A stretch of 53,759 bases of DNA, filler included, from Squatina squatina (taxonomy: Eukaryota), in assembly GCA_031763465.1 (NCBI GenBank). It is 3 parts of 3 records of this genome, joined end to end, with 100 filler letters (N's around TTAATTAATTAA, not from the genome) between each part and the next. Parts side by side here need not be neighbours in the genome. Positions count along the whole stretch, not along the records: positions 13,473 to 38,325 come from JARFOE010000016.1; 2 more parts are not named here. One strand, 5' to 3'. Shown here in pieces: positions 245 through 31,777 of the stretch. Each line of letters begins with the position of its first letter. Within the stretch, counting starts at the first letter, position 1. The notes under the pieces are model-generated. The model saw only the letters and a list, made by a program, of their open reading frames with translations, did no database searches and was not told the DNA's origin. Both the position numbers and the translations under genes were made by a program.

Positions 245-516
245 CTGTAGAGGACAGTCAATATTATCCCACAAATATAGCTCATCAATTACTTCATTTC
301 TAAAATATTGACCAACTGTAACACTAATCATCCAGTATACTTCTGGTGTAATTTAACAGTACTATGTTTCAACAATCAAGGTGGGTTTTTAAGAAAAAAA
401 AACTACGATCCTGTTCAAGGCTCTTTGGTTCAATCACCACCTATTGGTTTTTTAAAAAAAATATAAATACAAAATTACAGTGCTAGATAAATTCAAGTCC
501 ACCATTCGTTACTTAC

Positions 517-752
517 CAAACATGGCACTGACCGACCCAGCCATCAGCACTTGTTGACTCGTGTTGAACATCTCCACATCAACTATTCCTTTACGGATGG
601 TCTCACTGACCTTGGCACCCAGCAGCACAGAGCCCACCGTCTCAAAGATTGTTGCTAAGATGCAGGCTTTCCTGAGTGTCAGTACACCTGAACCAACCGC
701 CGTCCCAAATGAATTGGCCACATCATTGGCTCCCACCGAGAACGCCAGAATA
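517..752 (-). CDS. SLC20A1: Partial first coding exon of PiT-1 (5' end lies in a gap)
   Basis: [22 protein letters not shown]...[28 protein letters not shown]...[10 protein letters not shown], then a GTAAGT donor (516-511). The residues ETVG, KVSE, DVEM and GSVSAMFG match SLC20A1 rather than SLC20A2 as I recall them. Confidence 0.92.
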
Positions 753-8167: not shown

Positions 8168-8349
8168 GTGTTATTCCTCCGTGGGACGTGTTGGTGGGAT
8201 GCAGCTCATCTCGCTGAATCAGCAGTGCCTGAAGAAGGGGAAAGGAGTTGTTGAACATGAGATCATGCACTCACTGGGTTTCTGTCATGAGCATGCGAGG
8301 AGCGACCGAGACAAATACATCAAGATTGAGTGGAAGAACGTGTGGCCTG
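8168..8349 (+). CDS. ASTL: Astacin metalloprotease zinc-binding exon, ovastacin-like
   Basis: 182-bp AG/GT exon: [60 protein letters not shown]. Contains HExxHxxGxxHEH. The CLxKGxG spacing resembles human ASTL (CLQKGRGIVLHELMH). Confidence 0.8.
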
Positions 8350-10410: not shown

Positions 10411-10463
10411 AGTCTGTGGTGATGAAGCTAGATTTTTTTTAAACCCATTTTGTCTCTCCTCAG

Positions 10464-10618
10464 TCAGTCTGTGAGCAAGCAGTGCGAGCCCTTGTGCTGG
10501 TTCCCACGAAGGAGCTGGGCCAGCAAGTGCAGCAGATGATCCGACAGCTCACCTCGTGTTGTGTGCGGGATGTTCGAGTGGCTGATGTGTCGGGGCAAGC
10601 AGATATATCTGCACAGAG
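10464..10618 (+). CDS. DDX56: DEAD-box helicase DDX56 exon (motif Ia)
   Basis: AG/GT exon reading SVCEQAVRALVLVPTKELGQQVQQMIRQLTSCCVRDVRVADVSGQADISAQR. Confidence 0.92.
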
Positions 10619-10707
10619 GTATAAAATATAGCAGCATGTTCTATGGCACTGTTCTCTTTCGGCTCTCATTGTGTGCACCTTCTCAGTACTGACTTTCTCT
10701 CATTCAG

Positions 10708-10878
10708 GCCCATATTAATGGAGAAGCCTGACATTGTAGTAGGCACGCCTTCCCGTATTTTGCTGCACTTGGAGCAGCACACCCTAAACCTGTGCACCTC
10801 CCTGGAGATGCTCGTGATCGATGAGGCGGATCTTCTCTTCTCATTCGGGTTTGAAAATGATCTGAAGAACTTGCTAGG
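10708..10878 (+). CDS. DDX56: DDX56 exon with DEAD motif
   Basis: 171-bp exon PILMEKPDIVVGTPSRIL...LVIDEADLLFSFGFENDLKNLL with a GTAAGT donor. An 89-bp intron separates it from the previous exon with matching phase. Confidence 0.93.
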
Positions 10879-13923: not shown

Positions 13924-15519
13924 TCAACTGACCAGCTTTGGCAGTACAGTCCTCTGAGTCATGTTGGGATTGGGATCATTATTTTGATTGGATCTCAGTT
14001 TGTTGGCAATGCTGGCAGAAGTAGGAGGTAGCTTAGCCACTGCGTCCATGAGAGCAGTCGGGCTTGTTGACATGCGTTTTACAAATGTTGTTTTGTCATT
14101 CGTTGGAGGCTTTGGCAGACGTCTTCGCAGCCAAGGGTGCCTTAAGGCCTGTGCTGGTGTCATGCGTAAGGCAGGATCCCATTCCAGGCAGTGTTTCAGG
14201 AAGTCAATGAAAGATTGGTCATCACAGCCCTTTAGAGCGCTGGTCCATTCCCGTTGACCAGGGGGACCTCGATTTTTTCCCCTCCGAGATCGTCCACCAT
14301 TTAAATGCACAGTCCCATCAGGAAGTGTTACAACTGAAGAATATCTAGGGTAACCCTTAGAGCTGATGAACATTTTGGCCCTGTGGGAACATTCCAGCAG
14401 TAGTTTAGATGGCAGTCCTAATAATTCCATCATGCAAGCGAGCTGATCTCCCTCATCTTCGCCTGGTAACAGTGGATGTCCAGTCAGCAGTTCAGCAAGA
14501 ATGCATCCCAAACTCCACATATCAATAGCCATCCCATAGCGTGCTCCTAGAATCACCTCAGGAGCTCGGTAAAAACGTGACTGAATGTATGTGTAAATTC
14601 TTTGATGGTCATAGCAACTGGACCCAAAGTCAATCACTTTAACTCCACTACGGCCCTGTTGCTTCAACAGGATGTTCTCAGGCTTCAAGTCACAATGGAT
14701 GATATGGCTCTTATGCAAAGCATCAAGGCACTGCAGGATGGAGTGTGCAAATTTACGGACCAGGGGCAGACTGAATCCTTGGAACTTATTCTTTTTGATG
14801 AGTTCATAGAGGTTCATGCTGAGTAGTTCAAAGGTCATACAGATGTGGTTACGGAAGGAAAAACTCTCATAGATATGGATGACATTCATGATGTTGTCCT
14901 TGTCTTGCTTCCTCAGATGCTCTAGTATCTTGATCTCCTCAGCCGCTTGCCTATGAAATCTTTTCTCATTCCGTACCATTTTCAAGGCAATGTACTGGTG
15001 GAGTTTGTGGTCATAAGCCTTCACCACCTGCCCAAAGCTGCCTTTCCCAATTACCTTGATGACTTCATATCGATAGGCTATATGATCATGTGGCACATAC
15101 AGATAAGAGCCCTGCTCATCATCATAGCTATTATTATTTGATGCTCCAATAATGCCTGGTCTCTTTTTAGAATTTGGTCCAACAAAATAGATTTCTGAAT
15201 AGCTAGCTATTTCCTGTTCCTCATACGGTGTAAGTCTGTGAAGATAATGTTTCTTTGCCTCCACTGCTGTCATTGGTTCCCCTTTTGGCCTAGTGGAGAC
15301 ATCATAGGATTTAATAGAACTGGAGCTGCCTTTCAGTTGGAAGGAGCTCTCCAGCTTGTGGGAAAGCAGGGAAGTCGTATCATTGGCACTGAGACTAATG
15401 TTTGATGTTGCACGTGCTGTCAACTTTGGCTCGGTTTCTTCATACAATTCTTGACCTTGGAAGTGCTGATCACCTCCAATGCAAAACTGATCATTCATGG
15501 CACTTGTATAGTCACTTTC
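13924..15519 (-). CDS. Large terminal exon of a class-2 DYRK kinase, DYRK2-like but divergent
   Basis: Acceptor ttttcttctgtttcAG (15521-15520), in-frame [10 protein letters not shown]..., DH-box [25 protein letters not shown], activation loop [13 protein letters not shown], and C-terminus RTVLPKLVS* as in DYRK2. Confidence 0.95.
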
Positions 15520-16129
15520 CTGAAACAGAAGAAAACCATATTCCTGTTGTGAGTGCTTGATGCAGTTATCTCAACAATGGTAAACCTGTAATGGAGATTT
15601 GTTATTAATGCCATTAAATAGCTTATTCCAAGTTAGGAAGGACATGTGATGCACAACTTTCTCTATGAAGCCCAACTCATACAAGACTTACATGATGCCT
15701 CCTCGAACTTCTCTCGTACTTCTCTCACACTCCTAGATAGACACAAGAAAACGTTTGTTGCCTGAAAGGCGATCCTTCTAATCAGTGACCTTTAGCACCA
15801 AGGTCTCCCCCTCACAATCATTCATGTTTTCCTGTTTCAACACTGCAATGGTAACTCTATCTCTAACCTTTATTTGTTTGTTGCTCCTAAGCTAAAAATA
15901 TGATACCTTACACACTTTGCATCCTCTGTACACCCTTAAGTCTTGAAATCAAGACTTTTTGCACCATCTCCAATTATAACTACTTGGACCTCAAAACTAA
16001 AGTCCTCAACTGCTGATCTCACTCTCATTTACTTTGGCTTCTTGCACGACAAATTATCACAGGATGTCTGCCTAAAGATTCTCATTAAACAGAAAGTTCC
16101 GACAATATTGTTGCACCACTACTGTGCAA

Positions 16130-16460: not shown

Positions 16461-17420
16461 CAGGTGCTCTTCCAAGATTAGCATACATGCCAACTGCTAG
16501 TATTTAATATTGATGAAAATCCAAATCTGAGCCTTTAGAAAAGCTCTCTTGCTTAGAGCACATGCACACAAACACATACAATGCATTGGTATAGTTACAC
16601 CATTATATTCCCCTGCATAAATAAAAAATATACAAATAAGGANNNNNNNNNNNNNNNNNNNNNNNNNNNNNNNNNNNNNNNNNNNNNNNNNNNNNNNNNN
16701 NNNNNNNNNNNNNNNNNNNNNNNNNNNNNNNNNNNNNNNNNNCTGCCCCCTCATACTGGTGGATTTTGCCTCCAGGGAAAACCCAGGTGGTAGTATAATG
16801 AAGATTAGTATAATCAAGATAAGGTATCACAATTAGGTTACATCGTGAAAATCCAAATAACTCAGAATTAATACTGAGCTGGTCGATTATCTTGCCTTCT
16901 TCATTTTGGAGTTGTCTTTAGTGTCTATTCGTGTGGTGGGAGGCAGAGCTGTTCTGGCCAACATGTGTAGGAACACTGAAAGCATGTTTACAATTTCCAT
17001 GCAAGTACTCGCTCGTTGAGGTCCTCACTTACTTTGTCACAACAGCAATTATTTTCCCAATAATAAGCACTGACTGCATTTTCAGAGCTAAAATTACACA
17101 GGCATCAATCAAATCAGTTTCATTAGAAAAAGGGACTTATTTTAATCATATTTCTTCTCAGCACTGTTTATTGTATGTGCAGTTTCATTTTTGGGGGTGG
17201 GGACGTGAATCCGGAATTCTGTTAAAAATGCCATACATTGGGGTAAGAGTGGAAATATTTAAGACAACACCTAACATGGCATCGCTAAATGTCACTGAAC
17301 CTTTCAGTGCTATGTCACAAGCATTGCTAGGGAGTAGGATAATGATGTCATTGGACATATAAAATCATTTACTGGCCAGATATAGTGCGTTTTCATGAAC
17401 AAGGTGAAAAGCAGTGGGAC

Positions 17421-18981
17421 ATGGCATTTAAAGTGCTTCCTTTTGGACTAATTAATTCAGCCCATAAATACTTGACTGGAGAGGTCTTCAACTACAAAGT
17501 GANNNNNNNNNNNNNNNNNNNNNNNNNNNNNNNNNNNNNNNNNNNNNNNNNNNNNNNNNNNNNNNNNNNNNNNNNNNNNNNNNNNNNNNNNNNNNNNNNN
17601 NNCGCGACAGCTTCCTCACTGAAGAGGAGCCAGATATGGACAATTGTGTTCACCAGGGAGGACTCCCCTATGGTCCATATCAAGAGTTCCTTTAACAGAT
17701 ACATTGCTGCAGACAAAGATGGCAAGATCACCTGTGATCAGGAGGCTCCCACTCCAAATTGTGTCTTCCTCATGATGCTTCATCCGGATGGAAGAGTCTC
17801 CTTCCAGTCGGAGCCCTCCAAACGGTATTTAGGAGGAAACCAAGACAACATCACATGCTTTGCCCAGGTTATCTCAGACAGCGAGAAGTGGATGCCACAC
17901 CTGGTGATCCACCCCAGTGTCAACATGTTCAACCCTGGCAAGAAAAATTATCTCCGATTGAATGAGCAAAATGGAAGAATATACTGTGACAAGAACCTAC
18001 CCTGGGGCGCTGACTGTGTAATGACACTTTACTTTGACATCAAAGAGAAAAAATATGCTGTAAGGACTGGAAATGGTAACTTCATTGCTTGCAATGGGAA
18101 GGTTGAGACCGAAGTTACACACAGGACATTATATCGCCTCCTGATAAAGAATGGGATGATCTGTCTGAAGGATATGTATGGAAAGTTCCTATCTGTGAAG
18201 GACTGCAATGTTAAAACAATCAAAACTTTGAATNNNNNNNNNNGAACTTTTTGTCATAGACCCTTCTCCTGGGCAGATCAATATCATGTCCTTGGCTAAT
18301 GAGAAGTATATCACCAGTAAACCTGGTCCAGGTGTCTATTCAAATATTAGTGAGATAAATGACGCTGGAATCTTCCAAATTATGATGGATTCCACAACAA
18401 AGAAAGTCTGCTTCCAAAATATTTCAAACTGTTACCTTGCTATTGGTGCTAAAGGCTTCATTGAAGTCTGTAAGACTCTAGATTTTCACTGCTGGTTTCA
18501 AATTGTGTACAATGGGGAAAAGGCAGCTCTAAAGACATCAGATGCAAGATTTNNNNNNNNNNNNNNNNNNNNNNNNNNNNNNNNNNNNNNNNNNNNNNNN
18601 NNNNNNNNNNNNNNNNNNNNNNNNNNNNNNNNNNNNNNNNNNNNNNNNNNNNNNNNNNNNNNNNNNNNNNNNNNNNNNNNNNNNNNNNNNNAGCAGAGAT
18701 TGGTTTGCAACAGGCCTATGTCTGAGGCAAGCAAAATAACTTTAACTGATGGTGGCTTTTATCAGTTCAAACTAGTATCTCTGGACAAATACTGGGAGGT
18801 AGATGGAGAAGGCTTTATCACTGCCACAGGAGAAGTGCCTGTTAACTTCACTATCGAATTGATCACTTCAGACCAAATGATCCTGAAAGGACCCAATGGA
18901 AAATACATTGTAGCAGAATCTGATGGAAGCTTCAAAGCTGTAGGAGAAGGTGCCAAGTCTGCCACAACATTCCAATACTAA
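17421..18981 (+). CDS. Divergent fascin-family actin-bundling protein, apparently single-exon CDS interrupted by three N gaps
   Basis: FGLINSAHKYLTGEVFNYKV..ATASSLKRSQIWT, RYIAADKDG, CFAQVISDSEKW, PWGADCVMTL, ELF, KYWEV and ATTFQY* align colinearly with FSCN1 from start to stop. Confidence 0.9.
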
Positions 18982-24598: not shown

Positions 24599-24802
24599 GG
24601 CCGTCCTTGGCAAGCTCCTAATGTTGCTAAGCCAACTAGAACTGGCACACGGGCTCGCAAAGCCAATTCGTGCGAGCTGGTGGCCCCATGGGGCGCTAAC
24701 TTGCTGCTGCAGCGTGCAATTCCCTCGGGGTGTTGTGCAAAAAAAAAATTGGAGGCATGCAACGCTCGGCCGAGGGTGCAGAGGCCCGTCCCCGGTACTC
24801 AC

Positions 24803-25111
24803 AGTCCAGGTCCAGGTCCTGCCTCGAACTCATCTTGATCTTGTGCTGCAGATTGTTCGCCACGTAGTGGGTGAGGTCGCCGTCGTGGCTGACCGTGCCC
24901 TCCAGCTCCAGCGCACTGGAGATAGTCGCCCTCCGCCCTTCCAGCTTGCCGTCCCGGCCTCGGAGGCCGCCCAGCACCTCGCTGATGCCGTCCAGGCTTT
25001 TGCTGTCCTGCAGGCGGCCGCACACCCGCTCGCGGGCCGCCGGGTTGACCGCCGGTCGGCTGCAGCTGCTGTTGCTGCTGCTGCTGAGGCGGCACGGACC
25101 GGGCGGCGGCA
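24803..25111 (-). CDS. BORCS6: Upstream coding exon (partial) of BORCS6
   Basis: DSKSLD...EGRRATISSALELEGTVSHDGDLTHYVANNLQHKIKMS matches BORCS6 RRATISSPLELEGTVSRHGDLTHFVANNLQLKI. GTGAGT donor at 24802-24797; CpG-rich region. Confidence 0.9.
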
Positions 25112-26965
25112 NNNNNNNNNNNNNNNNNNNNNNNNNNNNNNNNNNNNNNNNNNNNNNNNNNNNNNNNNNNNNNNNNNNNNNNNNNNNNNNNNNNNNNNNN
25201 NNNNNNNNNNNATATATAGGGGTGGCATCATAAAGCAGGAGAATGAAGCTCAAGCAGTCTTTCAATGTCATCTGAATCCCAAGATGTATTACAACTTTCA
25301 AGCAGACTTCTAAATATTTGATGTTCCTTATGAGTGATATAAAATAAGAACATTGACTTTCCAAAGGAATTTAGAAGTAATAGATAGATAAGTTAAAGAT
25401 ATTCAGATTCATTCAGGCTACACTTTTAAGTGTAACTCCTGAATCACACTATTATTACACTAGGCACCCCAAATTGTAGCAATTATGGTACCACATGACA
25501 CAAATTGCAGTGATATGAAGTTTTGTTTCACTGCGCTGTGTGTGTTGTGTAGCACAGGCTAGAATACATTACAAGGTCGTCAGACATTAAAGGCTTCAGA
25601 TGACACCTAAAACCTCAAGCAGTTTATTGCCTTCTGAAGTTCTCATTATATTATGATCTTGAACATGCTATTCTTTATGATACATATAAACGGGATATTG
25701 GTGGGGGTAGCAGTACTTTGTTTCAAATCACTTGATTTTCCACCATCAGGTGTCCTGGTGGCCATCGATGGATAACTAACTCAGGAGGTTGAATCAGGTG
25801 ATTTGCACCAATCAGCTATTATACCATGTGATTTGAACTGCAGTCATATCATATTTTAATTCACTGCATGTTACAGGGGAATAGTAGACTCTATATATAT
25901 TACTGGAGAATAACGCATTCTATTTATTTTCGAGTGCAATAGGTTAAAAAGTTATTTCCAAAGGAAAGCAAATTGTTTTTAATCCAATAAATTACTACAA
26001 TCTATTGCTCTTACCAAACCACAGTGCTTATTTTCTGCTGGCTTCAGCACTAATGCGATATAATTTCAGGAGCAAGAACAGGAGTCTGCTTTTGTGTCAT
26101 ATAAGCTCTATTTCCCTACGCCTTAATCCCTCCTCATAATGGAGAAAATAATGTTGCAGATCCACAGAGTTCCAACCGAAGTCACAAAATTTAAACAATT
26201 TGAAACAAAAGGGTATGAAGTGTTGAGCTCGTTCCAGGATTGTGGCATGGTGTTACTCTGCAATATTGCTTGAACAAGCTGTGCTGCAGAGTAGAGCTGA
26301 AATGTCTGTACCTGTCGCTTTCCAAATGGCAAGTTCCTGACATCAGCTGTGCCATCTGTTGAAGTGCTATAGGCACATCTAAGCATATCTCCAGAGCGAG
26401 GGGTGGAAAATTTGTGAATGAATGACCCCAAAGTGCTGTCATCTCCCTCTCTGTGTGGTCTCATGTTTGCCAAAGCCCTGAGATTAAACAGTTGGTATCA
26501 AGTAAACCTGGTATGCAGCATTGGACTTGAATATTTAAAACATCAAGATGTCTGGCATATTGCAAGTTGTCCTGTGCAGGTCTTTCCAGCATGCTGAAGT
26601 CAAATATGTGATGAGGAAATTCTAAAACGTAGGATGACAGTTACTTGCCGCTGGGTATCTGAACGTGTAGTGAACTAGGTTCAGTGCCTACTTTGATTGG
26701 GTTGTAAAGAGGTAGGTAGTTGCNNNNNNNNNNNNNNNNNNNNNNNNNNNNNNNNNNNNNNNNNNNNNNNNNNNNNNNNNNNNNNNNNNNNNNNNNNNNN
26801 NNNNNNNNNNNNNNNNNNNNNNNGATAGCCATTTCAAGTCACAAGAAAAGCTCTTTATCCGAATAAAGAACAAGTTCAAAATAATTTTTTCTTCGCACTG
26901 AGCTGCATAGTTTATAGTCTGAATAATGGTGGTAATTAAACTGAGACCTGTCTTCCATTTTACAG

Positions 26966-27362
26966 CGCAAGACCATACCAGAGTGATCATCTCGGTCAAC
27001 CTGATGCAAAGATTGAGACCCTCCGACAGACTATTCCCAATAATGAAAGTGCAAGAAGAATGCAGAATCAAGGTCGCTCTACACAGAACTTGCAACAAGA
27101 ACGGAGGACGACTCTCCAAGTTGACACAAGTACAAAAAGAGCAGAAAGATCGCATTCTGCATCCCCAGATAGAGGCAGTGCTCCAACATCCCCTTATTCA
27201 GTACCACAGATAGCGCCACTGCCCAGTAGTACTCTATGTCCTATTTGTGCAACTACCGAGCTGAATTCTTCTCCAAAACAGCCAAACTTCAATACTTGTA
27301 CTCAGTGTCGATCAGTAGTGTGCAAGCAGTGTGGATTTAACCCTAATCCTCACATTACAGAG
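26966..27362 (+). CDS. BSN: Bassoon-family exon (first zinc finger, N-terminal half)
   Basis: tttacAG...GTGAGT exon reading [34 protein letters not shown]...[25 protein letters not shown]. Confidence 0.88.
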
Positions 27363-28239
27363 GTGAGTTTTTATTCTTACTCTGAGCCTGTGTGGCTTTT
27401 ACAAGCAGATTTAATGTGCCTCGTATACAATGTTGATCAGAATACCTTTCTTCACTAGGGTTATTTAGACCTCAGTCATCTCAAACCACTTTCAGGCACT
27501 AACAGTGCTGGATGCCCTGTTTTTCCCTAGATTTTTACAAAAGGATTCAAAGTGATCAAGTCACATGAAAACCCAACTCTGGCTTAGTTACATATTTAGA
27601 CTACCATGTTGTTCAGGCAGAGCATTTAACAGTATTTAAAATTGAACTTTGTAAATATTTGAGAAGGGAGAATGTAAAGGGATGCAGGAAAAAGCAAGAA
27701 AATGGGATGAAAGTAGATGGGTCAAGTTGAAGAGCTAGCTTAGGTGCAAAGGACTTCTGTGCTGTGATTCTGCACTATGCAAGAAAAATATTTGTCTTGC
27801 TTCTGGTAGGAAGTAATGATCTCATTTACTTACCAATGAAAACCCTTGGACCATTGTTGCAATAATTACTTCTGATTGAAAAGAACTGTCAAATGAGTAA
27901 TGTAGAATTAACTAGCAAGATGCTTTGCATCAGGCTTGCCGAAGAAAGACTTATTCATGAGGTCAGGTTAGATAAATTATATAAGTGAAATTCCTCTGGC
28001 AAGTGTGTATCAACACGTCTCCCTCAACAAACACTGCCAAAATAATATAACTGATCATTTGTTCCATTGCTGTCGATAGGATTTTGGTGCATATTTGGTG
28101 TCATGTTTGCCTACATAATGGTGACTGCACTTTAAAGTAACTCATGTGAAGTGCTTTGGTATGTAATTGGGCGCTATATAATTGTAAATTGTTTTCTTTG
28201 AATGGAATGGAAAGACTACCTGCTCAATGCCTCTTCCAG

Positions 28240-28453
28240 TGTCATCAGTTTCATGAAAGAAAAGGATGGTAATTGCAATCATGGAGGAGGAGCGTGAAAT
28301 ACTAGATGAAATTAACATTGCAAGAGGAAATATTAAGGGGTTTAACATCTTCTGAAGGTGGATAAATCCCCAGGCTGTTAAGAGGAAAAAATAGCGAAGG
28401 CTCTGACCATCATTTTCCAATCCTCTCTGGCTACAGGTGTGGTGCCAGAGGAC
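28240..28453 (+). mobile_element. CR1 LINE ORF2 fragment, decayed
   Basis: aaggtggataaatccccagg...atagcgaaggctctgaccatcattttccaatcctctctggctacaggtgtggtgccagaggac reads KVDKSP...IAKALTIIFQSSLATGVVPED. Confidence 0.8.
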
Positions 28454-28553
28454 NNNNNNNNNNNNNNNNNNNNNNNNNNNNNNNNNNNNNNNNNNNNNNN
28501 NNNNNNNNNNNNNNNNNNNNNNNNNNNNNNNNNNNNNNNNNNNNNNNNNNNNN

Positions 28554-28642
28554 TCAATAAACTCTGTTTCTCTCTCCATAGATGTTGCCTTACCTGCTGA
28601 GTATTTCTCGCATTTTCTGTTTTTATTTCAGATTTCCAGCAT
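28554..28642 (+). mobile_element. Arm of the Penelope-like palindromic repeat family
   Basis: tttctctctccatagatgttgcc...cctgctgagtatttc...tttatttcagatttccagcatctgcagtattttgctttt. Homologous to 2073-2128 and to the reverse complement of 10161-10211. Confidence 0.6.
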
Positions 28643-29183
28643 CTGCAGTATTTTGCTTTTGTAAGCCAGTTCCTAATGACCTCGTGAACCGTGGAGTGCT
28701 AATTTAAAGCCTTGGAAAACAGAAATGTTGCATTGCATGTTTGGATGAAAGGACATTGTCTTCATGTACATTTTTGGAAAACATTTTTGTTTGCAAATGC
28801 ATTTTGGTATCGATATATAATTGCATCACTTGTGGATAAAATCCTGACTGAAATCTTGCAAGGAACTTTTTCTGAAGACAAAAACTGGCTGAACAAATGT
28901 ATTTTTAATAAAGGCAATGCTCAATAGCTCAGTATAAGGTGATTGTTGTATCTAATTTGGAGAGTTAAGTGCCTGATGCTAACAGGTATGCCAAAAGTGA
29001 AGGAAATTTTCCATTTTGTAGCACTTGCATTCACACTTTGAGACCAAAAATTAAACAAACTGTTTAAGTGGAGTAATACATTTTTATGGTAACCAGTGAT
29101 ATATTATGATTTGAGGTTGCAAAAAATGTTTAGCAACTCAAATTTCAGATGGTGTAACAATACTTTTTCTTTTTCTTTTGTAG

Positions 29184-30051
29184 GTAGAAGAATGGTTGTG
29201 CTTAAACTGTCAGATGCAGAGAGCTCTGGGAATGGACATGACGACTGCACCACGCTCCAAAAGTCAGCAGCAGTTACACTCCCCATCACACCAGCCCCAA
29301 ACAGAATCACAAGCAAAACCGCAGCAACAGCCTCNNNNNNNNNNCCCAACAGGGCAGGACTACACCAGTAAAAAGGGAGCTTCCCAAAGTGCCATCTGGT
29401 GCACAAAATAAACCCGAGACCAAGATGCAACCCAATCAACTTGAACAACAGGGGCCAACAGCTAATCAGTCTCAACCACAGCCTTTTACTCAGCCGAAGC
29501 CTGTCGTCCAATCTGAGGCAACCAAGCCTCAGAGTCAGCACACTCGGCCTTCTCCTGCAGAACAAAGGCGGACAGCAGATGGTTCACCATCAAGAACACA
29601 AGCAGGGCCTTCCAGTATATCCCAAGAGCAGGAGGGCATTACTGGGAAACTCTTTGGGTTTGGAACTTCCCTTTTGAACCAGGCCACTAGCCTTATTTCC
29701 AGTCAGCCGGAACAGACATCACAAAGCCAGCAATCACCTGCTAAAGGGTCTGCAGCTAAACAGGCTCCAAAAATAGTTTTCAGTGATCAAAGCACAGAAT
29801 TGAGCTCAAAATTGCAGGGTTCGACAGCAGGAATGCAAGTTAAAACTGGGGGTGTCTCTGCAGTTAAACAAGGAAAACCGGAGCCAGTCATTCAACAGAA
29901 AGAAGCCATCAAACCCAAAGTATTGTGCCCTCTATGTAAAACGGAACTGAATGTGGGATCAAGTCAGTCTCCCAACTTTAACAACTGCACTGAATGCAGA
30001 GTCCAAGTGTGCAACATGTGTGGCTTCAATCCAACTCCACATCTGGTAGAG
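29184..30051 (+). CDS. BSN: Bassoon-family exon (end of zinc finger 1 to first half of zinc finger 2), contains a 10-N gap
   Basis: [34 protein letters not shown]...EGITGKLFGFGTSLL...PKIVFSD...LCPLCKTELNVGS...CNMCGFNPTPHLVE, with AG/GT boundaries. Confidence 0.88.
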
Positions 30052-31777
30052 GTAGGACAGCTTCAAAGAGTTATAAATGCCATAACCTACTGATCTATGT
30101 TGTTATAAATCTCAATTGACTAGGAATGGAATGATGACAGGTAGAAGTGTGTCCCCAGATAGTTTTGGCCTTAAAACCTTCTGGATTGCTGCCAATTTAA
30201 GGAGTTAGAGATGATTTGATGAAGGTAGACTGCTGTGATTTCACATGCCCTGGTGATGAAGACTACTAACGTTGAGATGGAGATAGATTTTAGATGTTTC
30301 TAAAGCTGAGCAAAAATATGTGAGCATGTGGGGGAAAGGGTAAGGTAAAATAACTGGTGACCAAAAAATGATACATTTATGTTTTTGATGTATGATGTGG
30401 ATGTTTGGTAATCTGGCCACTTCTAAGTGATCTTGGCATCCAATATATTTATTGGCCAGATGATCTGGATGTTGGTCGGACAACTACAGAGCTTTGGGCT
30501 GAGAGATTATATAAATGCTCTTCAAAAGCTGTAGATGTATGATATTAAACCACAGTGTCTCTTTATTAAAAAATATGCATGGACGTTTGTGAAAAGAGTA
30601 AAGGTTGTTTGGCTACCTGTATATGCATTGTATATATTTTGTCCATATCCCTAAAAATGCTCTGTGGTTGAAGGTTGAGTGTCTGTTCAAGGCTGACGGA
30701 GCATGCCCTGCACAAGATTTCAGTAAACAGTAAAGCGCGATTGATATCATTGACTTACTGATTTGGAGCAGCATATTGGTCCATAAGGTCATTACAGAAT
30801 TGCCACAAGATGTAGTGTGTGCACTCGAACCTTCATTTCCACATTCAAACATTGCACTTAAATCCCTTGTACAATGTCTTTTTTTTAAATAAGGCAGCCC
30901 TTCCACTTTCACCTCTCTTGACAGCTCTTAACAAATGCACATTAATACAGAGAAGCACACATGTTTACAGGAGCTGTCTGTTAAGTGAATTCTCTATTAA
31001 AGTCCACAAATCAATAAGGTACAAATTCTATAAGTACCTTCTCACTAAAGAAGTAAGATAGAATAGTGGTAGAAGATGGACAATTTATCCTGGCCAATTG
31101 TGGTCTTGACTTTCAATCAAGCTGTCTAAGTTCAGTTGTCCAGAACAATTGCCCGTTTAAAATGTATAGCTTTTGGGACAATATCCATTGATATACTTAA
31201 AGAAAACATAATATTTAGTGTGATCGCTTGTCATATCTGTGCATACCATCCTAGTTTTGATGTGACTATCTGTTAAAGTAGCATATGTTTTTGGAGGATT
31301 GTATACAGAGATGTTTGTGTGAATCACCTATTGAAATGAAGTCTATAAAGTGATAATGGAACCAAAATTGGTTTATTTGTTCTTGATATAATGATTCCTG
31401 AGAAATTGTATGATTGTGATTTTTGATTAAACCAGCTATAATAATGTAATATCTGGTGTGTTTGCTTATTTCTTACATAAAAGGCAAGGGTAACCAGGTT
31501 GGCACATCTGTGGTGCTGTGATGCAGTGCTTGTACAGGTTAGGGACAACGCACCTCAATTGAAAGTGCTTCTGCATGTGCCAGAAGAATTAATTGTTGAA
31601 AACGAAATAGTTTGTACAGTATCCTGACCTCAACTTCAGTACCTAAAACTATAGGTTACTATTGACATGCAGTGTCTTGGTGATGCTGGTGTTCTTCATT
31701 TGTGAGGTAGTAGGGCACTCGGCCATAGCATCTTGAGTGAGTTACCTATCTAAACGAGAGTGTTGGAAGGAAGAAAA

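What the first reader, a model, noticed from the sequence alone, without database searches (positions are those of the whole stretch)
17421..18981. Intronless, highly divergent fascin gene: candidate undescribed retrogene or extra fascin
Seen: a start-to-stop fascin with all four beta-trefoil regions and no stop codons in sequenced parts. It reads straight through positions where FSCN1, as I recall, has introns (TSKPG/PGVYSN, EVCKT/LDFHCWF, YQFK/LVSLDKYW). The remaining junction falls in a 139-N gap that roughly equals the ~47 missing codons, leaving no room for an intron. The PKC-site serine context is kept (ASSLKRS versus ASSLKKK) while much of the rest is strongly substituted. Known: vertebrate FSCN1, FSCN2 and FSCN3 are multi-exon. 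Inference: an old, ORF-preserved retrocopy that may provide a lineage-specific actin-bundling function, for example in testis. This is the strongest novelty candidate in the window.
Basis: partly seen in the sequence, partly recalled or inferred. Interest (0 to 1): 0.72.

Follow-up and report, generated by a model that had tools for sequence, protein, structure and literature searches.

The report
Shark retrogene of a fourth fascin
This shark gene is an intron-free copy, likely made from messenger RNA before sharks and chimaeras split, of a fourth vertebrate fascin (actin-bundling family) that databases list only as 'fascin-like'; 21 shark, ray and chimaera species keep it whole, and it probably binds actin more weakly or under different control than its parent, likely in sperm-forming cells.

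Summary
In detail: 17421-18981 encodes a four-trefoil fascin. Relatives' contigs close all three N gaps without an intron. It is neither an FSCN1 retrocopy nor FSCN3 (AU p about 1e-4 each). Its sister is a six-exon 'fascin-like' gene elsewhere in this genome, and it lacks all five introns of that gene. Both belong to an unnamed fourth jawed-vertebrate fascin clade (coelacanth, sturgeons, frogs, reptiles; no bird, mammal or teleost member found), best placed beside FSCN3. Orthologues are exactly 487 aa in 21 of 21 species examined, including a chimaera, and are about as conserved as the parent; one relative's copy looks disrupted. Copy and parent split the actin-site motif: the copy keeps the PKC serine (S39) and loses K43, the parent the reverse. 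Expression, tissue and bundling are untested. Retroposition is likely (about 0.8); a DNA duplicate that lost its introns is the rival, since about 120 upstream bases weakly match the parent.

The parts
17421..18981 (+). Single-exon fascin coding sequence, 487 codons once the gaps are sized
17503..17602 (.). 100-N placeholder gap; 1 base in relatives' contigs
   Evidence: tables 5, 5c
18234..18243 (.). 10-N gap; 12 bases in relatives, which removes the apparent frame change
   Evidence: table 4
18553..18691 (.). 139-N gap (about codons 346-392); same length in relatives; covers the parent's intron-4 position (codon 362) and the K358 and R398 equivalents
17616..17618 (+). Ser33 = human fascin-1 S39 (PKC site); Ser in 21 of 21 orthologues, 0 of 18 species-matched parents
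17628..17630 (+). Ser37 in place of human K43; S/N in 21 of 21 orthologues, K in 18 of 18 parents
18030..18061 (+). Reads through the parent's intron 1 (codon 176, phase 1)
18313..18344 (+). Reads through the parent's intron 2 (codon 270/271, phase 1; also an FSCN1/2-type position)
18430..18461 (+). Reads through the parent's intron 3 (codon 309/310, phase 0; same column as in the FSCN3-like gene)
18757..18788 (+). Reads through the parent's intron 5 (codon 418/419; inferred from Narcine and Latimeria gene models)
17289..17408 (+). Upstream stretch colinear with the parent's upstream DNA: TGTCA at 17290, 17313, 17346 and TATAAAA at 17358; weak significance
   Evidence: 38 of 2000 shuffles reach the score; none beyond -150
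13924..15520 (-). Neighbour: large exon of a DYRK2/DYRK3-type kinase (context only)
24799..25111 (-). Neighbour: BORCS6-like reading frame (name recalled; no Pfam or Atlas hit; context only)
26940..30093 (+). Neighbour: piccolo/bassoon-family zinc-finger exons (bassoon assignment recalled; context only)

Best explanation
The gene is an intact, intron-free copy of a six-exon fourth vertebrate fascin, likely made by retroposition of the parent's mRNA before chimaeras and elasmobranchs split, and its protein is predicted to fold as a four-trefoil fascin that likely binds actin filaments with weaker, PKC-switchable cross-linking, probably in male germ cells. Shown: no introns, sister relation to the multi-exon gene, different neighbours, constant 487-aa length, purifying selection, residue pattern. 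Inferred: an mRNA intermediate (about 0.8); insertion beside the DYRK2/3-type gene, carrying the parent's 5' leader and its TGTCA/TATA-like motifs (about 0.5); division of labour in which the parent lost the inhibitory S39 site but kept K43 and K358, while the copy kept S39 and lost both lysines (pattern shown, consequence about 0.5); germ-cell expression, from kinship to testis FSCN3 and the general testis bias of retrogenes (recalled; about 0.5).
For: Gaps closed without introns in three related organisms. The own-genome paralogue on C73 has GT donors at codons 176 and 271, and an unplaced contig holds a further exon, codons 310-362, with AG/GT ends. Isoform and partial models of shark, ray, coelacanth and squamate relatives break at the same five places, so the introns predate the copy. 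Tree: copy clade 100/100, sister to the chondrichthyan parent 97/99, inside a fourth clade 100/100 (same groups under a mixture model, quick tree, 88 for copy+parent). 21 of 21 species have 487 aa; mean pairwise identity in 18 matched species is 80.7% for the copy and 86.3% for the parent. The window differs at 4 of 182 invariant sites against 43 of 253 others. dN/dS against the parent is about 0.24 (dN 0.33, dS 1.36). Neighbours differ: DYRK2/3, zf-piccolo and an LRR gene on C16; DDB1-type, bestrophin and peroxidase genes on C73. AlphaFold2 of the Heptranchias orthologue gives pLDDT 93 and TM 0.92 to fascin-1.
Against: No expression data. No poly-A remnant or target-site duplication is visible (expected at this age). 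About 120 bases upstream match the parent, which a DNA duplicate would also explain. A pre-gnathostome age of the copy is not rejected (AU p 0.19). In organism D (run X10, depth about 3) the gene appears interrupted just after the start codon and is frame-broken, so it is dispensable in at least one lineage or that contig is faulty. One Callorhinchus model (P0064, 319 aa) ends early where the RefSeq model is whole. Intronlessness was shown in this genome and three relatives only, not in the 21 named species. The parent's exons 3, 5 and 6 were not found in this assembly. Of five contacts called critical for bundling, E27 and F29 are kept, R149 is K here and S in 8 of 21, and K43 and R398 are lost, so bundling itself is uncertain.
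Confidence: 0.75

Rival explanations
1. A DNA-level duplicate (segmental or from genome doubling) of the fourth fascin that kept its promoter and later lost all five introns by recombination with its own cDNA.
For: Upstream about 120 bases are colinear with the parent, including three TGTCA motifs and a TATA-like box at similar spacing. An age older than the jawed-vertebrate split is not rejected.
Against: The similarity is weak (38 of 2000 shuffles) and stops at about -150 (285 of 600 shuffles reach the score further up), as expected for an mRNA leader. No neighbour family is shared in the 240 kb on C73 and about 225 kb on C16 that were read, both gap-rich. The best tree makes it chondrichthyan-specific.
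Confidence: 0.14
2. A formerly functional retrogene that is a pseudogene in this species, with the lesion hidden in the gaps.
For: About 152 coding bases are unseen and the assembly is out of frame across one gap. A relative's copy looks disrupted.
Against: 435 sequenced codons have no stop. Only 4 of 182 invariant sites differ, three conservatively. The end branch (0.068) is like its sisters'. Organisms A and C keep frame across all gaps.
Confidence: 0.06
3. The protein has the fascin fold but no longer cross-links actin; it binds one filament or another partner and acts as a competitor or scaffold.
For: K43, K358 and R398 equivalents are lost in 21 of 21, the trefoil-4 contacts H474/A475/V477 align to S/D/S, and R149 is S in 8 of 9 rays. 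K43 is K/R in 19 of 21 invertebrate-type fascins.
Against: E27, F29, S39, K41, K74, D75 and F122 are kept in the window protein. R398 also varies in FSCN3 (0 of 4), lamprey/amphioxus (1 of 3) and invertebrate-type fascins, so its loss is not diagnostic. This rival concerns function only and is compatible with the retrogene origin.
Confidence: 0.3
4. It is the shark FSCN3 orthologue, or a retrocopy of FSCN1.
For: The Callorhinchus parent protein is labelled 'fascin-3' in one record. In two catsharks the copy and fascin-3-like are on records of equal length, probably one chromosome.
Against: AU tests reject both groupings (p 9.9e-5 and 7.9e-5). Separate FSCN3-like and FSCN1/2-like exons exist in this genome. 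Identity of the orthologue is 27% to coelacanth fascin-3, 33-35% to FSCN1-type proteins and 58% to the parent.
Confidence: 0.02

Closest known systems
Fascin-1 (FSCN1; PDB 1dfc, 3p53, 8vo5)
   Same: Four beta-trefoils, TM 0.92 for the orthologue model; E27, F29, S39, K74, D75, F122 kept; intron positions 271, 362 and 419 shared with the parent gene.
   Different: 33-34% identity; K43, K358, R398 and the trefoil-4 contacts replaced; separate clade; no introns.
Fascin-3 (FSCN3, testis fascin)
   Same: Best-tree sister of the fourth clade (96/97); shares a phase-0 intron at the same column with the parent gene.
   Different: About 26-27% identity; own clade with shark, coelacanth and marsupial members; grouping with the copy rejected. 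The sister relation is not firm: fourth clade plus FSCN1/2 is not rejected (p 0.07-0.12).
NCBI 'fascin-like' multi-exon gene of sharks, rays, chimaera, coelacanth, sturgeons, frogs and reptiles (e.g. XP_067849595.1, H3A7Q2, XP_006264658.2): the parent, here called the fourth fascin
   Same: 487 aa, colinear without gaps, 52-58% identical within a species; similar upstream motifs.
   Different: Five introns; another contig with other neighbours; lacks S39 and keeps K43 and K358 in chondrichthyans. Database entries only; no description found in print.
Old conserved vertebrate retrogenes with the parent retained (e.g. makorin family, PMC3022923, seen as search listing and abstract start only)
   Same: Intron-free copy at a new place, parent kept, long-term retention.
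   Different: Here the parent itself is an undescribed paralogue, and retention spans sharks, rays and a chimaera; 95.7% of cartilaginous-fish retrocopies are reported as species-specific (bioRxiv 10.64898/2026.06.26.734816, passages).

Membership tests
Fascin family (Pfam PF06268) | Four tandem beta-trefoil domains in the fascin arrangement | tested here: met
   Four Pfam stretches in the window pieces, one below the curated cut-off because it is cut by a gap; orthologue model pLDDT 93, TM 0.92 to fascin-1.
Fascin family (Pfam PF06268) | Actin-contact residues of both binding sites | tested here: inconclusive
   E27, F29, S39, K74, D75, F122 kept; K43, R398, K358, H474/A475/V477 replaced; R149 K or S.
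Fascin family (Pfam PF06268) | Bundles F-actin as a monomer | not testable with these tools
   Needs purified protein.
FSCN3 orthologues | Falls in the FSCN3 clade | tested here: not met
   AU p 9.9e-5; separate FSCN3-like exons in this genome.
FSCN1 retrocopy | Nearest multi-exon relative is FSCN1 | tested here: not met
   AU p 7.9e-5; nearest is the C73 gene.
Fourth gnathostome fascin clade (unnamed) | One supported clade apart from FSCN1, 2 and 3, in species that also have FSCN3 | tested here: met
   100/100, 100; Latimeria and Scyliorhinus hold both this clade and fascin-3.
Functional retrogene | Precise absence of all introns of an identifiable parent | tested here: met
   5 of 5: four read through in the window, one sized by relatives' contigs. 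Parent intron 5 is inferred from other species' models.
Functional retrogene | Different genomic place, no shared neighbours with the parent | tested here: met
   C16 against C73, different neighbour families in gap-rich flanks.
Functional retrogene | Poly-A remnant and target-site duplication | tested here: inconclusive
   None seen by eye in 320 bases downstream; not expected to survive dS above 1.
Functional retrogene | Parent's promoter not carried along | tested here: inconclusive
   About 120 upstream bases weakly match the parent, nothing beyond -150; transcription starts unknown.
Functional retrogene | Intact ORF under purifying selection | tested here: met
   487 aa in 21 of 21 species; 4 of 182 invariant sites changed in the window; dN/dS 0.24 to parent. 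Exception: organism D looks disrupted.
Functional retrogene | Transcribed | not tested
   No RNA evidence obtained; open.

The most novel reading that the evidence does not exclude
Jawed vertebrates began with four fascin genes, not three; the fourth survives in cartilaginous fishes, coelacanth, sturgeons, some frogs and reptiles but not in mammals, birds or teleosts. Cartilaginous fishes have a fifth, a retrogene over 400 million years old that split the ancestral actin site with its parent: an unregulated bundler (no S39, K43 kept) and a PKC-switchable weak or non-bundling partner (S39 kept, K43/K358 lost) that together shape germ-cell actin.
Probability: 0.3. Interest if true: 0.72.

Novelty: new member of a known kind. 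Interest (0 to 1): 0.52.

Why it matters
Reviews state that vertebrates have three fascins (PMC7698196, passages). A fourth lineage, plus a long-kept retrocopy, changes the family's history and may explain where the odd testis FSCN3 came from. The parent/copy pair is a natural experiment on the S39-K43 actin site, with reciprocal changes fixed across 18 species, and can be tested directly in a bundling assay. It also corrects annotation: these genes are filed as 'fascin', 'fascin-like' or 'fascin-3'. Retrogenes and lost paralogues are known kinds of event, and this scan has noted other old shark retrogenes, so the principle is not new.

Tried and rejected
FSCN3 orthology and FSCN1 parentage: rejected. 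Frameshift at the 10-N gap and intron in the 100-N gap: rejected by relatives' contigs. Sequencing-run search: no RNA holder listed; this is no evidence on expression. Cross-species dN/dS: not possible, only proteins of other species were available. Parent exons 3, 5 and 6: not found in this gap-rich assembly. Whether the gene lies in an intron of the DYRK2/3-type gene: not resolved. ESM Atlas gave no usable hit for the BORCS6-like frame. Supplements of PMC11979771 and PMC3466250, which may give tissue expression, could not be read; their main texts hold no 'fascin'. Yang 2013 and Sedeh 2010 are not held. Literature searches for a description of either gene found none; the library lacks most subscription papers, including older fascin reviews. 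Scan notes by sequence and by place gave nothing; the 8 of 22 'fascin' notes shown were unrelated. No complex prediction was run: a filament partner is outside that tool's useful range. The careful mixture-model tree did not finish; AU tests use LG+G4.

Full report
Observation. The frame runs from ATG 17421 to TAA 18981 on the + strand in four sequenced pieces with no stop. Pfam finds Fascin domains, and the only solved relatives found by sequence are fascin-1 chains. The assembly changes frame across the 10-N gap, and the 100-N gap looked like a placeholder. Contigs of four public runs from three related organisms, about 5-7% different from the window, settle this: 1 base, 12 bases and a same-length stretch fill the three gaps. 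In organisms A (X1, X2) and C (X7) the frame is kept; X2 and X7 each span start to stop in one contig that runs on into flanking DNA. In organism D (X10, depth about 3) the contigs break just after the start codon with repeat-like loose ends, and the coding contig is 4 bases short in one part and about 8 in another: still intronless, but apparently disrupted. The tool marks the kind of these runs as guessed or unknown.

Parent. A search of the own genome found a closer paralogue than FSCN1 on contig C73. It has GT donors at codon 176 and codon 271. An unplaced contig holds a further exon, codons 310-362, with AG and GT ends and 81% identity to the Heptranchias parent. Exon-skipping or partial models from Narcine, Chiloscyllium, Cetorhinus, Callorhinchus, Latimeria and squamates break at the same places and at codon 419, so the parent lineage has five introns that are older than the copy. 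The window reads through four and the fifth lies in the sized gap. Parent exons 3, 5 and 6 were not found in this assembly.

Distribution and selection. The first protein search gave 15 hits among 424 candidates, 8 of them at 79-92% identity. Cluster look-ups raised the copy's clade to 21 named species, including the chimaera Callorhinchus. I used one protein per species and left out a second Pristiophorus entry, an unnamed entry and a 319-aa alternative Callorhinchus model. All 21 are 487 aa. In 18 species with both genes, mean pairwise identity is 80.7% for the copy and 86.3% for the parent, and against Callorhinchus 68-79% and 68-74%. The window differs at 4 of 182 invariant sequenced sites, and from Heptranchias at 43 of 253 others. 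Against its own parent, over 261 codons, dN is 0.33 and dS 1.36 (near saturation, so rough). The chimaera-elasmobranch split at roughly 420 million years is recalled, not from a call.

Phylogeny. In a careful LG+G4 tree of 28 rows the window sits with sharks in the copy clade (100/100), sister to the chondrichthyan parent (97/99), inside a clade with coelacanth, sturgeon, frog and reptile proteins (100/100). FSCN3 of shark, coelacanth and marsupial forms another clade (100/100). A 57-row quick tree under a mixture model shows the same groups. AU tests reject copy+FSCN3 (p 9.9e-5) and copy+FSCN1 (p 7.9e-5) but not an origin before the jawed-vertebrate split (p 0.19). The fourth clade is best placed beside FSCN3 (96/97), and the parent shares a phase-0 intron column with the FSCN3-like gene of this genome. 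Both clades are long branches, and placing the fourth clade with FSCN1/2 is not rejected (p 0.07-0.12). FSCN1 and FSCN2 are thinly sampled (fish and chicken). A search seeded with bony-vertebrate members gave 49 hits among the 7,994 candidates scored: squamates, turtles, alligator and chondrichthyans, and one teleost at 35% identity, the FSCN1 level; no bird or mammal. That is absence from a word-limited search, not proof of loss.

Place. On C16 the neighbours are a DYRK2/3-type kinase, piccolo-type zinc-finger exons and an LRR gene; the names LRRN1, BORCS6 and bassoon are recalled. On C73 they are DDB1-type, bestrophin, peroxidase, armadillo and Na/H-exchanger frames; the match to the human 11q12 block is recalled. 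No family is shared, though both flanks are gap-rich. The 150 bases upstream of the two start codons align colinearly over about 120 bases, with three TGTCA motifs and a TATA-like box; 38 of 2000 shuffles reach the score, and nothing matches further up. I noticed the motif before testing it. This fits an mRNA leader carried along, or a kept promoter.

Function. AlphaFold2 on the Heptranchias orthologue (89% identical to the window) gives pLDDT 93 and TM 0.92 to fascin-1. Mapped by the alignment to the contacts in the cryo-EM study (bioRxiv 10.1101/2024.01.03.574123, passages), E27, F29, S39, K74, D75 and F122 are kept. K43 is S/N, K358 is N and R398 is M/L/I in 21 of 21; R149 is K in the window, R in 13 and S in 8. 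The parent shows the reverse at the first site: no Ser at S39 in 18 of 18 and Lys at K43 in 18 of 18. R398 varies widely among other fascins, K43 much less. I infer weaker, phosphorylation-controlled cross-linking by the copy. A germ-cell role rests on kinship to testis FSCN3 (PMC10046292 and PMC7698196, passages) and on the recalled testis bias of retrogenes; no expression data were obtained.

Novelty. Both genes exist as automatic 'fascin-like' entries. Eight searches found no paper describing a fourth vertebrate fascin or this copy. The two hits concern choanoflagellate paralogues (PMC3748353, passages) and a cancer review (listing only). A survey of vertebrate retrocopies does not mention fascin in its main text. 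Unreadable supplements and subscription papers may bear on this. Verdict: a real, old, conserved retrogene of an undescribed paralogue; a new member of known kinds; interest 0.52.

Noticed in passing
window 17426-18821 as laid with run X10 (organism D): Repeat-like insertion just after the start codon and frame-breaking deletions: the gene looks pseudogenised in this relative; low depth.
   Followed up: partly
G000:C73:5799029-5802038 (L016, L019) and C1082863 (L011): The multi-exon fourth fascin itself, apparently undescribed; it lacks the PKC serine in all 18 chondrichthyans compared.
   Followed up: yes
L014, L023, L028, L033 (small contigs and C121): FSCN3-like exons in this shark genome; with catshark and coelacanth entries this shows FSCN3 is as old as jawed vertebrates.
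   Followed up: partly
P0016/P0120 and P0018/P0237: In both Scyliorhinus species the intronless fascin and fascin-3-like lie on records of identical length, probably one chromosome.
   Followed up: no
P0077, P0309, P0310, P0312, P0078: Many turtle models of the fourth fascin cover only 66-76% of the protein, which may mean decay in turtles or faulty models.
   Followed up: no
window 13924-15520 (-): DYRK2/DYRK3-type kinase beside a bassoon-like gene; by recalled synteny possibly a further paralogue absent from mammals. Its upstream exons were not located, so the fascin may lie in its intron.
   Followed up: partly
P0006, P0007, P0008, P0024, P0025, P0027-P0029: 8 of 9 rays replace the R149-K150 basic patch of the copy with S-D, a further lineage-specific change of the second actin site.
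   Followed up: partly
window 496-752 (-), 8168-8349 (+), 10463-10878 (+): First stretch of the pack holds exons resembling a phosphate transporter (SLC20), an astacin-type protease and a DEAD-box helicase; names by eye and recall only.
   Followed up: no
L070:2819-4573 (-), on C16 about 9.258 Mb: Long open frames made of a degenerate tandem repeat; probably satellite DNA.
   Followed up: no
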